Part shown: positions 26,301 through 32,300 of the stretch, piece after piece
How the letters are laid out: each line of letters opens with the position of its first letter
Position numbering within the stretch: position 1 is the stretch's first letter
From: Chrysomallon squamiferum
Taxonomy: Eukaryota > Animalia > Mollusca
DNA length: 64,000 nucleotides
Reading direction: 5' to 3'
Assembly (NCBI GenBank): GCA_012295275.1
Contig: CM022674.1
Span: forward strand, 12,586,001 to 12,650,000
The notes under the pieces: model-generated
Databases searched by the model: none
Told to the model about the DNA's origin: nothing
What the model saw: only the letters and a program-made list of their open reading frames with translations
Made by a program: the position numbers and the translations under genes

Positions 26301-29300
26301 TAAAAAATCATTACATACACTGAGTCATATAAAAATATTTCTTTATTAAAATAACAAAAAAATTGCATCGATATTCTAGAATTTAACAATTTTGATGGAG
26401 ACCATATTTTGTCCATAAATCATAAAACATATAAAGTATCAGAAATAACTGAGGCAGTATCAGAACTTTTTATTATCATTTGTAGCATGAGACAAAATTA
26501 TCAGTTCCTTCAGGTTTGATCAGTCAAACCCTGTTATATATAAGATTCAATCAAGATGGAGTAAAAATAAAAAGGACATTTCCATCACTCACCTTCTTTC
26601 TAACGAGAGACATGATTCCTATTCTTGTCAAGACATGCTGGCGGGAGATAGACCCTCTCTTGGCACGCCATCTGCAAATGTTTCTGAGTTATCTGCTCCT
26701 GGCTCACAAAGATGGCGCATGAACAATGAGACGTATGCTTTGAAAACTTTTTCAGTTTTCCCTCGAAGATCTCGAACAAGCCTAAAAAAAAAAATGTTTC
26801 ATCTTATTATTTTTTCATATTTAAATATTTTTTCACATTAATATTTAATAGACTATTTTTGGGGGATAACTAAGAAATTCAATACTTTGAAGTTGTGGTT
26901 TAGAATCAGATATTTTTTCAGTTTTTTTACCTTGATACAGTTTTACAGAACTGTTACAATATATCACATTCTATTTCTTTTATAAGGAATGAAGACAGGA
27001 ATCCATAAATACATCAAGTTTCTACCCATATTAATTTAAACATCAAGATAGACTGACATTTTATTATTTCAGTAATAAAAGAACAACATCTTGCTGTAAT
27101 GACAAAACTATGAAAATGGAAGACAACTTACCACTGAGTATTGAAAGCGTCTTGAGGAGGCATTCCCCACCTCATCACAGCATTCAGGAAAGCCTTTCGT
27201 TGTCTTGCATTGAATCCCAAAACCTTTGAAAGAAAAACAAATAATATATACACATTTAAATGTCAAAATAGCATAACATTATAAAACATCTATAAATGAA
27301 GATAATAATAATAAAATAAAAATTAAAATAAAAATAAAAATAAAAACAAAAAAATAATAAAATAATAAATAAATATATTAAAGTGATGTGCTTTTAGCAA
27401 TTATTTTTATCATTAAATATTCTATTCTTATTAATTTTCAAAACAAAAAGAAATAACCAGTACTTCATTAACTCCTACAAAATGAAATCTGTTGTTTATA
27501 TTTGAGTCTTACATACACAAAAGAAATCACACTCAATTAACATTATTCTCAGTGGTTTACCTCAATCTGTCCATTGACTCGAGCCAGTAATGGTGGCAGT
27601 GGTTTTTCTTTTTCATTTCCTCTTCGTCTTCGGCCTGGCACTAGTAAATAAAAAATTAAATATAAAGATAATTTATTTAAAAAAAATTTAACACACTAAA
27701 TGTTCTACCATATTTTGGATACATTATATCCATACAAAAACGTTCTTAATTTTGTGTTTAAAATATATTTTATCATTACATAATGGTTTTTTTTTTTGGT
27801 TTTTAATCATTTTAATTATATTTTAAAAAATACTTGCAATAACATGGACAAACAAGATGAAAATATTTCACATACTTGCAAATACTTTAAAACACACTGA
27901 TGAAAATAATAAAATGACTTATCACCAAATTATAAAAAATGTTTTGGTATGCCTTATAGACAGTAAGTACACCTTATCCCACTGTCCCTAAATATACCAG
28001 TTTAATCTCTGTCTCTCACCGAATAACATACATATGTCTCACATATGTTGTAACTAAAGAGACAGGTTAATTTAATCAACAATTTAATTTAATATTTAGT
28101 TTAACAATGATTTTAAACAAAAGTTGATGAACATGTGTTAAATGAAACAGATATCAACTTAAACATTCATGGAACCAGAAAACCAAGTGATTACTTACTA
28201 TCACGTTGATTTTCATCAAAATCATCATCATCTTCATCATTATCTGTAAACAAAACGATGTAATTTTCACTAAATATTTAAATTTTAAAAATAAATTGGT
28301 AAATAAACAAACAAATAAATTTAAAAAAATAAATAAATAAATAAATAAATAAACAAGAAATTGGGTTAAATTTCAAGTGAAGATAATTTAAAAATTTATT
28401 TTTAACTTCATTATTTTACATAAATATTGTCCTTTATCTTTTAAATATGTACTTTTTCACCATAATCTGTCCTTTTTAATAATAAAATTGTTAAACTTAC
28501 AAAAAAAACTAAGAGAAACTTTTTAAAATGTAAACACTTATTCACAACAAGATTAAGAAAATACACTAACATATAAAAAAAAAAAAACATTTTAAAACAT
28601 TTTAAAAATTAACTCATGCAAAACAAAATGTAGCAAAAACAAAAAAAAGATTGTTTTAAAACAAAACAACAACAAAATAAATAACAAAAAATATAACACA
28701 TACTGAAATCAGAATCAAAGTCAGACATTGTTTCCTTCCAAGCATCATCATCATGGCCGTTCATGGCGTCGTTGTAGTTGACCTGTTTACGAACTCTCTT
28801 GCCTTTGCCCAGTGTTCGCGCGAGGTCTTCCTGCTGCTGTTCGTAGTGGTGACGTAGGAGTTTCTCCCAGTAGGCTGGGTCAGCATGCTCTGCCTCCTGT
28901 TTCAGTACCTCTGTCTCTGGCTCCTCCTGTTCAAAAAATGGAATTAATATTTAAATATTACCATTAAGAATTAAAACTGTTTGAAAATGACATTAAAAGA
29001 TATTTGTGTTACTGAATAGTCAATAACACAAACATCGTTTAACCCATTGAGACATGAAAATGTAATAATCTACAAAATGCTATTGTAAGTTTGTTACAGA
29101 AGTTTCTGTACCAAGGATTCCTGCTTAAAAATATCAACCAAAAGCCTCTGCAAAAATAAAACTTTCTGCCATTCCATAATAGGATAATGCATGTAGCAAC
29201 TAGTATGATTACACTACAAACGTATTATTTTCATCTCAAAAATTTAAGTCTGAAAGGTTTAATGTTTTTATATAGTTTAACTGCCAACACTTCTATAAAA

Positions 29301-32300
29301 AATAACAAAAATAAACGTCTGATTTTGTGTCTACTAAAACAACTATGTACACGACACTTCACAATAAACGTACCTCCTCTTCTTCGCCCTCTTTCACCGT
29401 GTAACTGGCCACTTTGAAAGAACTGAGGTACTCATTCATGGCCATTTCCTTCTCCTCCTGCCCCTCCTGAGTTCTGTCCAGTAACTGATACACAGCTTTG
29501 TCATCATACACAATGCGATTCTCCTCACCTGCAGTCAGAAACAGCAGAAAATAATCACTGATACCAGCACATGTTAAAAACAAATACAAACAACTATTTA
29601 AAAAATGTCTTTAATAACGTTCCTCAGTACTAAACTCAGTGGACTATTTAGTCGTCATAACTGACTAATTTATACTGTTAAGAATCAAACAATAGATGTT
29701 GATCTGGGAAGCCCACACAATTAAGAAAAATAATTAATTACAGTCAGAGTATAAGCAATATGTTATTTACATAACTACAATCCGTAAATTATTGGTAGAA
29801 AATCTTTTTAATGTTCTTTTGTTTGTTTTGTTTTTTTGCAATTTAGTTCAATATATAATAAAATTTAGAAAATAAATTAAATAATGGTAGAATCAACAAT
29901 AACAACAACAATAATAAAACCAAATGTAAATCTGATACCAGTGGAGATTATTATTTAATAATATCACATCCAGATCTCTTCCAGTTAATTATGAATAATA
30001 ATTACAGAACCGAAATAAAACTTCCTACCTTCACTGACCGAACATCCAACAATTTCAATCCAGATTCAGACTTTCTTTACGACAACATTAATAACAATTT
30101 AACACTTCTGTAAATTTTATCAAGTAAAAAGTAAGAAAAAATTACTACCTTTTTCACTCCTACCTTTGTTGTCATCCATCTCTTTAAACAGCTCCTCCGT
30201 GCCGAACTTGAGAATGTCGTCCAGCTCCTTCTTCGACATCGTCTGACTCTTGTTGCCGAGTCCAGGACGCACCACCAGATGGGTCAACATCATCTTCTTC
30301 TTAGCGACCTGAGTAATCCTCTCCTCCACAGACGCTCTCGTAACAAACCGGTAGATCATCACACGATTCGCCTGTCCAATTCTGTGAGCTCGACTGAATG
30401 CCTGGTCAAATTGATAAATTAAAATTATTTTCTCATATTTCTATGTTGAATGATATTGAAGGTTAATGATATAAATCTGTTGCTGCTACAAAATCTATTA
30501 ATAAAGATTAGACTAGTCAGTGCATATTTATATTCATTTTTACCATCATCACTTGTTTATCAGATTATACTGGAGTTGATATTAGTATGCTAATGTGAAT
30601 ATATGTATATATACACAAAGACACACATTGCACATACACACACACACATACATACATACATACACACAAACAAGAACATCACTGTGTAATAGGCTTCTGT
30701 TTTATAGGGGAAAAACTGTTTTGGTATGCCTTATAGACAGTGAATAGATCTTATGCCACTGTCCCTAAATATACCAATTTAATCTCTGTCTCTCGTCATA
30801 AAACATAAATACAGAACATTTATGCTTGAGTAATTAAGAGACAGAATACTTTTATACTCCTTTGAATTAATTTTTTTCTATTACGCCAATTAAAATTTAA
30901 ATTAAAATATCCCTTAGTCTTCAAGGTAATTAAGTGACCATTTTACCTGGATGTCGTTGTGAGGATTCCAGTCAGAGTCGTAGATGAAGACTGTGTCTGC
31001 AGTGGCCAGGTTGATGCCCAGACCTCCAGCTCGTGTTGACAGCAGAAACACAAACGCTTGGGCTTCCTTGGCTGCAGGACAAAAATTAAACAAAATCTTT
31101 TACTTCACAATAACTTAATACAGAAATATTTCCATTCAGTTAATAAATTAGCTACTATTATAGAAACAGTATAGTATCAAACAAATAGACAAAAATAAAA
31201 TAAAATAAAATAAAATATCATAATACAGAAACATTTGCCAAAAAAAAGAAAAAAATGTTAAGTCACAAACATGAAAGCACAGAAGAAAAAAAAGAAAAAG
31301 AGATTCCAAATATGTAAACTTACACTATTCTGGAGACTCATACACATGAATTTAGTATTTTTCCAAGAACTTATTTTACTTTTTTTTTTTTTTTAAATTT
31401 AAAGGGTTGATACTGTCAAAAAATGAACTTATATGCCTTTGTGATCAATGTTAAAATACAGCATATGAAAATACACAAAATGTACACTATCTATAGGCTT
31501 ATGTCTTTTATGAGATTTAAGTAATTTATACAAAAAGAAATATTGTTATAAATACACACTTACCATTGAACCTGTCAATGGCATCCTGTCGAAGGGCTCC
31601 AGTTATTCCACCATCAATTCTCTCGTACTTGTAGCCTTCTGACTCCAAGAAATCCTCCAGAATGTCCAGCATCTTTGTCATCTGTTGAACAAATATAAAT
31701 TTGTTTAATACAAGTCTTTGAAGGTAGTGTCTCCAACTCATTCAGAATGAACACATTTTAAACTAGCTACCATTAAAGTAGCTGAACAAAGAAATGGCTT
31801 AAAAACACCTCAACTGAGTTATCAGCTTTTAAATGTTATTCTTAGGTAATTATATTAATGTTGTGTGCGAGGGAGTAAGAGAAGATGAAACAGATAGACA
31901 GACAGACAGACAGTGTAATACTGACAAAAAATAGAAATAAAGAGAGAGATTTCTAAAAAGTGACAGAAATTAAATAAAAATCTATTTTCTTAAAAATATA
32001 TATATTATTTTTAAATTGGCCATTATTTTCCAAAACAATAACACTATAATTATGGATGAGATAAAAATGAGCTAACCTGAGAGAAGATGAGAATTCTGTG
32101 TCCAGTTTCCTTCAGTTGTTTCATCATCTTTGCCAACAGCTCCAGTTTACCTGATGCTTTGACCAAAGCTGAACCTTCATAGGCACCATTTGGCATTCGT
32201 GGGGCTTCCTACAAAATACAAAACATAAAACTTTTCAATAACTTTACAGCTCAGTTAAAATGTGAAGAAAACAAGCCTCTCTAGATATCTTCAAATATAA

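What the first reader, a model, noticed from the sequence alone, without database searches (positions are those of the whole stretch)
27937..30845. Two paralogous ACA57/SCARNA11-like scaRNAs in separate CHD introns
Seen: two ~130-nt copies (27937-28066, 30714-30845) on the host sense strand, with canonical hairpin-H-hairpin-ACA layout. They have identical 3' pockets 15 nt from ACA, a UAAG in the 3' loop of both, and UGAG in the 5' loop of copy A only. Known: human SCARNA11/ACA57 lies in a CHD4 intron and is the predicted guide for U5 Psi43 (GCCUUU-Psi-A-CUAAA). Inference: the host-guide pairing is ancient and was duplicated locally. Both copies read AUAAGGC where AAAGGC would pair perfectly, and the 5' hairpins have diverged, possibly toward different targets or localisation.
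Basis: partly seen in the sequence, partly recalled or inferred. Interest (0 to 1): 0.7.

Follow-up and report, generated by a model that had tools for sequence, protein, structure and literature searches.

The report
Twin U5-guide RNAs in CHD introns
Two introns of a chromatin-remodeller gene each hold a copy of a 130-base double-hairpin sequence that likely makes a small RNA predicted to guide a chemical mark in the spliceosome's U5 RNA; similar guides sit in the same gene in other species, and one extra base in this pair may shift or double the position marked.

Summary
Observation confirmed. Two hairpin-H-hairpin-ACA elements (27937-28066, 30714-30845, minus strand) lie sense in two introns of a CHD3/4/5 (Mi-2) gene. 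Folding z is about -5.6; the 3' 82 nt are 90% alike, the flanks unrelated. A second organism keeps the 3' half as well as the exons, at single-copy depth. Seven CHD3/4/5 loci of other species carry the same pocket (..UAG / AAAGG-type, 14 nt to the ACA box) inside unrelated stems, all in one neighbouring intron. This supports an old host-guide link aimed at U5 loop I, as for human ACA57/SCARNA11. Neither copy matches Rfam SCARNA11 (E<=10), so it works like that family but is not filed in it. New point: both copies carry a one-base insertion (AUAAGGC, 15 nt). It allows two registers: U43 with a bulged guide U, or U42 with three unpaired target bases, which published rules say can shift or double the site. 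Different targets for the 5' hairpins are unsupported. Expression and this species' U5 were not shown. The scan found this guide-host pair before on other DNA (e1-7494858). Verdict: new member of a known kind, interest 0.35.

The parts
27937..28066 (-). Copy A, box H/ACA RNA candidate (130 nt)
   Evidence: fold z -5.5; boxes; 3' half kept in organism B
28038..28041 (-). Copy A UGAG at tip of the 5' hairpin (CAB-like; U paired in the predicted fold)
28003..28008 (-). Copy A H box AGAUUA
27988..27993 (-). Copy A 3' pocket, left strand AUUUAG; UUUAG pairs with U5 C45-A49
27973..27976 (-). Copy A UAAG in 3' loop (CAB-like; reads CAAG in organism B)
27951..27957 (-). Copy A 3' pocket, right strand AUAAGGC, one base longer than in homologues; AAGGC pairs with U5 G37-U41
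27940..27942 (-). Copy A ACA box
30714..30845 (-). Copy B, box H/ACA RNA candidate (132 nt)
   Evidence: fold z -5.7; weak full-length H/ACA-model match SNORA43 31.7 bits, cut-off 80
30780..30785 (-). Copy B H box AGAUUA
30765..30770 (-). Copy B 3' pocket, left strand AUUUAG
30750..30753 (-). Copy B UAAG in 3' loop
30728..30734 (-). Copy B 3' pocket, right strand AUAAGGC
30717..30719 (-). Copy B ACA box
27641..28198 (-). Host intron of copy A (GT-AG)
   Evidence: splice sites; RNA contig of run X8 joins 28704 to 27640 with 45 letters between
28199..28243 (-). 45-nt acidic micro-exon of the CHD gene, just upstream of copy A's intron
30402..30946 (-). Host intron of copy B (GT-AG, in the helicase C-terminal region)
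27224..27560 (-). The ..GQIE|VLGF.. intron: empty here, but the guide's site in 7 other species
21989..42118 (-). CHD3/4/5 (Mi-2) host gene, part matched by tblastn
   Evidence: Pfam CHDNT and DUF1087

Best explanation
Two introns of a CHD3/4/5 (Mi-2) gene each hold a box H/ACA element that is likely cut out of the spliced intron as a ~130-nt guide RNA, predicted to pair with loop I of U5 snRNA and have the H/ACA pseudouridine synthase convert a loop uridine, most likely U43. Shown: structure, boxes, intron positions, conservation, and complementarity to U5 of other eukaryotes (UUUAG with C45-A49, AAGGC with G37-U41). Inferred: processing from the intron, H/ACA protein binding, Cajal-body location through xxAG loop motifs, and catalysis. 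History (inferred): an old guide in this host gene, equivalent in role to human ACA57/SCARNA11 and Drosophila pugU5-44, sits in a different intron in this lineage, gained one base in the pocket, and was duplicated. The extra base gives two registers: apex A pairs U42 and the guide U bulges (target U43), or U42 stays unpaired with U43 and A44 (target U42). The 5' hairpin is likely structural only.
For: Fold and boxes. All 34 named pairs are kept between the copies, with 4 changed pairs and none broken; two sequences give no statistical power. Organism B: one contig covers 27939-28017 with 11 differences in 79 and no gap, against 33 of 228 and 30 of 160 in two exons, at depth 14.2 versus 12.6 and 14.1. 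Descriptor scan of 80 loci plus the window: 8 hits on the host-sense strand, 0 on the antisense strand, 0-2 in each of 10 shuffles. The 6 outside hits and L024 all lie in one intron and keep only the pocket, the spacing and the boxes while the stems differ. U5 is the top-scoring of 77 sites for the window pocket; U5 U43 is top for 4 of 7 homologues. Human ACA57 is listed with U5-43 and CHD4 (PMC6466398, table row; PMC7960923). Guides with a 1-nt bulge or U-U on the 3' side still modified their site when the preceding U was unmodified (PMC5733568 section 7).
Against: No Rfam SCARNA11 match at E<=10 for either copy or for homologues tested. This species' U5, rRNA, U4 and U6 were not available. 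A single pocket match is weak: shuffled pockets reach the same score in 17 of 300 trials on snRNAs and 14 of 40 on rDNA. The descriptor was tuned after the first hits were seen. Homologue folds are mixed (z from -0.2 to -5.4). In naked RNA the U43 register is 2.9 kcal/mol weaker than the U42 register. [quoted passage not shown]
Confidence: 0.65

Rival explanations
1. Same guide, shifted or doubled site: the inserted base leaves U42 unpaired, so the RNP writes pseudouridine at U42 instead of, or as well as, U43 (a dual guide loop).
For: 7 of 7 homologues have a 6-nt right strand and 14 nt to the box; both copies have 7 and 15. The U42 register has 10 Watson-Crick pairs and is the stronger duplex (-7.1 against -4.2 kcal/mol). 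In yeast an A-to-U guide change that unpaired the preceding U moved the site one base upstream (PMC6049503 section 8). Three-unpaired registers favour a strong upper stem and 15 nt to ACA (PMC5733568 section 5), both present here. Dual loops for adjacent uridines are known (PMC8763049). Organism B aligns without a gap, so the extra base predates the split.
Against: Human U5 has no pseudouridine at 42 (PMC7960923 passage), and position 43 is modified in yeast too, so selection should keep it. An extra unpaired substrate base abolished activity for snR34 in vitro (PMC6800473). Um41 next door may interfere (inference). The energies ignore stacking on the upper stem and the proteins. The identity of the extra base in organism B was not shown. 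Human and fly pocket sequences were not seen, so the insertion may not be peculiar to this lineage.
Confidence: 0.22
2. H/ACA RNAs whose real target is another RNA (rRNA, U6, U4 or an mRNA), with the U5 match a leftover or chance.
For: Copy B's only Rfam hit is an rRNA-guide model (SNORA43, E 5.6e-5). Short pockets match rDNA often by chance. The species' own RNAs were not tested.
Against: The SNORA43 match is far under its cut-off, its pocket differs, and copy A does not hit it. rDNA alternatives need 1-5 G-U pairs. Homologues keep U5 complementarity while everything else changes.
Confidence: 0.07
3. Non-functional sequence: a small inverted-repeat mobile element or decayed guide copies.
For: Two copies with unrelated flanks; no expression shown.
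Against: Single-copy depth in organism B and no high depth in organism A run X5; conservation equal to exons; boxes at canonical places; sense-strand and single-intron bias of homologues.
Confidence: 0.06

Closest known systems
Human SCARNA11 / ACA57 (Rfam RF00564; accession from note e1-7494858 and recall)
   Same: Box H/ACA layout, intron of a CHD3/4/5 gene, predicted guide for U5 position 43 (PMC6466398 table row; PMC7960923).
   Different: No match to the Rfam model at E<=10. Two copies here. The human sequence and intron number were not seen, so pocket length and intron position could not be compared.
Drosophila scaRNA:PsiU5-44 (pugU5-44)
   Same: Intronic invertebrate scaRNA predicted for the U5 loop I uridine (44 in fly, taken by recall as equal to human 43); Cajal-body located (PMC3884663 passages).
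   Different: Its host gene and pocket are in a table and figure not held as text; Mi-2 is not named in the main text. Its activity was not verified.
Dual-guide H/ACA loops (SCARNA8, SNORA57, SCARNA1, SNORA53; SCARNA15; S. pombe pugU2-43/44)
   Same: One pocket with two pairing registers that share a core helix and place neighbouring uridines (PMC8763049 sections 8, 10, 11; PMC5733568 sections 5, 7).
   Different: Those act on U2 and rRNA; PMC8763049 does not mention SCARNA11 or ACA57. Dual action here is only predicted.
SNORA43 (RF00416)
   Same: Weak full-length structural match of copy B (31.7 bits).
   Different: Cut-off is 80 bits, pocket sequences differ, copy A has no hit; read as a generic H/ACA shape match.

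Membership tests
Box H/ACA RNA | Hairpin-hinge-hairpin-tail fold with ANANNA in the hinge and ACA three bases from the 3' end | tested here: met
Box H/ACA RNA | Bipartite pocket 14-16 nt from the box with at least 8 pairs to a target | tested here: met
   15 nt; 5+5 Watson-Crick pairs to U5 of other eukaryotes; 8-pair rule from PMC6049503
Box H/ACA RNA | Accumulates as a processed RNA bound to dyskerin, NOP10, NHP2, GAR1 | not testable with these tools
   only cDNA contigs were at hand; none covers copy A
scaRNA | CAB box (ugAG, A3 and G4 required) in a terminal loop | tested here: inconclusive
   UAAG in both 3' loops, CAAG in organism B, UGAG in A's 5' tip with U paired; consensus from PMC5207380; AG is common by chance
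scaRNA | WDR79 binding and Cajal-body location | not testable with these tools
   needs experiment
SCARNA11/ACA57 (RF00564) | Match to the Rfam covariance model | tested here: not met
   no hit at gathering score or at E<=10
SCARNA11/ACA57 (RF00564) | Sense strand of an intron of a CHD4-type gene | tested here: met
   CHD3/4/5 subfamily by CHDNT and DUF1087; introns
SCARNA11/ACA57 (RF00564) | Same intron as human SCARNA11 | not tested
   human gene structure not available from any call
SCARNA11/ACA57 (RF00564) | Pocket places U5 U43 | tested here: inconclusive
   U5 loop I fits, but U43 needs a bulged guide base and U42 is the stronger naked duplex
Dual-guide pseudouridylation loop | Two alternative registers on adjacent uridines | tested here: met
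   both registers can be drawn; this is sequence logic only
Dual-guide pseudouridylation loop | Both uridines are modified and depend on the guide | not testable with these tools
   needs pseudouridine mapping

The most novel reading that the evidence does not exclude
In this mollusc-like lineage a single base inserted into the old CHD-hosted U5 guide turned it into a shifted or dual guide, so that U5 loop I, the exon-aligning loop, carries pseudouridine at U42 as well as or instead of the conserved U43: a natural, duplicated and selected case of the target shift so far shown by engineered mutations.
Probability: 0.25. Interest if true: 0.6.

Novelty: new member of a known kind. Interest (0 to 1): 0.35.

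Why it matters
It extends the CHD4-type host / U5-guide pairing to a lophotrochozoan-like genome, where Rfam misses it, and shows the guide moving between introns of one host gene and duplicating. The guide activity of this family appears unverified in what I read (the fly RNA failed or could not be tested), so more natural variants help. The one-base pocket insertion gives a sharp, cheap test of the rules for target choice: U5 U42, U43 or both. If only U43 is modified, the finding is an ordinary unannotated scaRNA pair.

Tried and rejected
No whole genome is held, so genome-wide copy number and this species' U5 were not examined. Rfam at gathering score found nothing in the window; mir-297 and mir-466 hits at 30584-30665 are a CA/TA microsatellite. 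blastn of the copies against the 80 loci gave no hit at E<0.5: homologues are visible only by pocket and structure. MAFFT alignments across species were out of register, so no covariance model was built. RNA runs X8 and X9 have no contig on copy A, which shows nothing either way. A 10-pair fit of copy A's 5' pocket to U2 position 39 rested on a decayed U2 copy and was not among the best sites with intact U2. Best 5' pocket sites on rDNA need G-U pairs and are at chance level. U6 and U4 could not be fetched; viral-collection scans for U5 and 18S found nothing. The rDNA used (L120) is from an unidentified eukaryote, not this species. A third H/ACA-like candidate at 42568-42727 overlaps a CHD exon and was dropped. 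L009/L011/L013 and other loose-pattern hits failed the stricter descriptor. L029 and L033 have AAAGGC pockets but UCA and AGA tails and were left out of the count of 7. A TatD exon search for taxonomy found nothing. Paper searches for mollusc U5 pseudouridine and for U5 U42 modification found 0 papers; searches found no paper placing the fly guide in Mi-2.
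Full report
OBSERVATION. The window is AT-rich eukaryotic DNA. Copy A (27937-28066) and copy B (30714-30845) each fold into two hairpins with AGAUUA in the hinge and ACA three bases before the end. Folding z-scores are -5.5 and -5.7, with 0 of 200 shuffles as good. The copies differ at 8 of their last 82 bases, none in the pocket; the 5' pocket and upper stem are 59% alike and the flanks 55-56%. All 34 pairs of the named structure hold in both copies, 3 through one-sided and 1 through a two-sided change; with two rows the shuffle control has no power. 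blastn finds no third copy in the window, and the two rank first and second of 12 candidates in a generic H/ACA scan of the gene span. UAAG is in both 3' loops; UGAG is in copy A only, as a GAG triloop with the U paired.

HOST. The gene is CHD3/4/5 (Mi-2): Pfam CHDNT and DUF1087. The three homologues returned were two gastropod proteins and one centipede protein; over all matched exons the window is 78% identical to the gastropods and 72% to the centipede, and it shares their ..VNGQIE.. motif. It is therefore mollusc-like, by inference. Copy A lies in intron 27641-28198, behind a 45-nt micro-exon; an RNA contig (run X8) joins 28704 to 27640 with 45 letters between. Copy B lies in intron 30402-30946, four introns upstream.

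SELECTION. Of 11 runs listed I laid 4 on 27500-29600. In run X10 (organism B) one contig covers 27939-28017, the hinge, 3' hairpin and ACA, with 11 differences in 79 and no gap. The two exons there differ at 33 of 228 and 30 of 160. Its depth (14.2) equals that of the exon contigs (12.6, 14.1), so it is not a high-copy repeat, and organism B may have one copy only (weak: contigs show presence, not absence; 332 records were not shown). Other intronic pieces listed for X10 are 41-42-nt AT-rich matches. Six of the 11 differences were listed, all at 27970-27979 in the apical loop and stem top, where UAAG reads CAAG; the other five were not shown. The match stops before the 5' pocket. The two RNA runs have no contig on copy A, which is uninformative for cDNA libraries.

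HOMOLOGUES. I fetched the best 80 of 107 metagenome loci that encode the DUF1087 exon. blastn found nothing, but pattern searches did. A descriptor (H box, lower stem..UAG, upper stem, AAAGGC with at most one change, ACA-type box), tuned after those first hits, gave 8 hits on the host-sense strand of 554,682 bases (both window copies, L001, L026, L027, L035, L037, L045), 0 on the other strand and 0-2 in each of 10 block shuffles. L024 was found by the first pattern and missed by the descriptor for its 3-pair stem base. All 7 lie in the intron between ..GGxIE and VLGF.., the intron just downstream of copy A's, which is empty in the window. Among loci holding that intron, 7 of 11 of the ..VGG.. 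type carry it (L029 and L033 have looser versions; L028 and L058 gave no hit) and 0 of 8 of the ..VNG../..VSG.. type, several of which are close relatives of each other (with L027 added). The exon DNA of the hit loci is 69-80% alike pairwise, and most score somewhat better against the centipede protein; their lineages were not determined. The stems are unrelated in sequence. What is kept is the pocket, 8 bases between pocket and box, and the boxes. Their fold z-scores are mixed, -0.2 to -5.4, partly with arbitrary 5' ends.

TARGET. U5 genes were taken from eukaryotic contigs inside prokaryotic assemblies (24 loci; 11 given to cmscan, 10 match U5). They and the Rfam consensus read UUUCGCCUUUUACUAAAGAUUUCC; my pattern fixed the loop, so this cannot show variation, and it is not this species' U5. 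Human loop I is GmCCUUmU-Psi-ACm-Psi, with Psi43 assigned to ACA57 (PMC7960923 passages), hosted in CHD4 (PMC6466398 table row). The left strand UUUAG pairs with C45-A49 and AAGGC with G37-U41. Against U5, U2, U1 and 6.8 kb of rDNA from an unidentified eukaryote, U5 ranks first of 77 sites for the window pocket; U5 U43 ranks first for 4 of 7 homologues, third and sixth for two, and is missed for L027, whose internal mismatch breaks the run. One pocket alone is weak evidence: shuffled pockets score as well in 17 of 300 trials on the snRNAs and 14 of 40 on rDNA. The case rests on the same complementarity recurring in unrelated stems. The 5' pockets have no site above this background.

THE EXTRA BASE. 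All 7 homologues have a 6-base right strand that abuts the upper stem, begins with the A that pairs U42, and lies 14 nt from the box. Both window copies have 7 bases, AUAAGGC, and 15 nt; organism B aligns without a gap. Two registers follow. In one the apex A pairs U42 and the guide U bulges, so U43 is the target (-4.2 kcal/mol as a naked duplex). In the other U42, U43 and A44 are unpaired (-7.1). In yeast the 5'-most unpaired uridine is modified, and an A-to-U guide change moved a site one base upstream (PMC6049503, passages and sections 5 and 8). Guides with a U-U pair or 1-nt bulge on the 3' side still worked, and two of four were also partly active at the preceding U (PMC5733568 section 7). 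Three-unpaired registers favoured a strong upper stem and 15 nt to ACA, though not as an absolute rule (section 5). Dual loops exist in human (PMC8763049 sections 8, 10, 11). Against this, an extra unpaired substrate base killed activity for snR34 (PMC6800473 passages), and position 43 is modified from yeast to human. I put U43 as main product at about 0.65 and a detectable Psi42 at about 0.25.

COMPARISON. It works like SCARNA11/ACA57 and fly pugU5-44, but neither copy hits the Rfam SCARNA11 model at E<=10, nor did L024, L026, L035 at E<=1 or L027 at E<=10, so I do not file it in that Rfam family. Copy B's weak SNORA43 match (31.7 bits, cut-off 80) is read as a generic H/ACA shape. The fly RNA is in Cajal bodies but was inactive in Xenopus extract and untestable in yeast (PMC3884663 passages; its Table 1, Figure 4 and supplements could not be read, and may name the host and pocket); it is unstable in foreign cells (PMC8522698 passage). 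CAB consensus is from PMC5207380 passages. PMC6984369 passages did not mention SCARNA11. Searches found no paper on this guide in molluscs or on U5 Psi42; subscription journals are not covered. An earlier report of this scan describes the same guide-host pair in another genome (e1-7494858); I saw it after forming my reading, and it is not independent support.

VERDICT. Real, conserved, most likely a duplicated intronic scaRNA-type guide for U5 loop I: a new member of a known kind. The one feature worth a bench test is the inserted pocket base. Interest 0.35.

Noticed in passing
window 28199-28243 (-): 45-nt acidic micro-exon of the CHD gene, missed by tblastn, supported by an RNA contig with 45 letters between the flanking exons.
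   Followed up: yes
L029 intron after 1062; L033 intron after 620: Looser versions of the guide in the same CHD intron: AAAGGC pocket with good lower stems, but UCA (L029) or AGA (L033) in place of ACA, and a left strand ending CGG in L033; decayed copies or variant boxes/U5 stems.
   Followed up: partly
L024 5755-5809, L035 6262-6313, L045 10543-10594: Left pocket strands read AUUAG or AAUAG instead of UUUAG; may mirror changes in the U5 stem next to loop I in those species.
   Followed up: no
L013 2876-2893 and 3629-3646: Two copies of the exon ending ..NGQIE before one VLGF exon: possible duplicated, mutually exclusive exons in a CHD gene.
   Followed up: no
L081, L084-L091, L095-L097, L100-L102; L108, L120: A bacterial genome record holds a contig with more than 80 U5 snRNA genes at 436-nt spacing and another with tandem eukaryotic rDNA: eukaryotic contamination, and a large U5 tandem array.
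   Followed up: partly
window 53227-56831 (+): TatD DNase-like gene (Pfam PF01026 in two exons), divergent from the CHD gene, whose last ORF ends in a hydrophobic, membrane-anchor-like stretch.
   Followed up: partly
window 8867-9660: Long 12-nt tandem array open in several frames.
   Followed up: no
window 30584-30665: CA/TA microsatellite just downstream of copy B; gives spurious mir-297 and mir-466 matches.
   Followed up: yes
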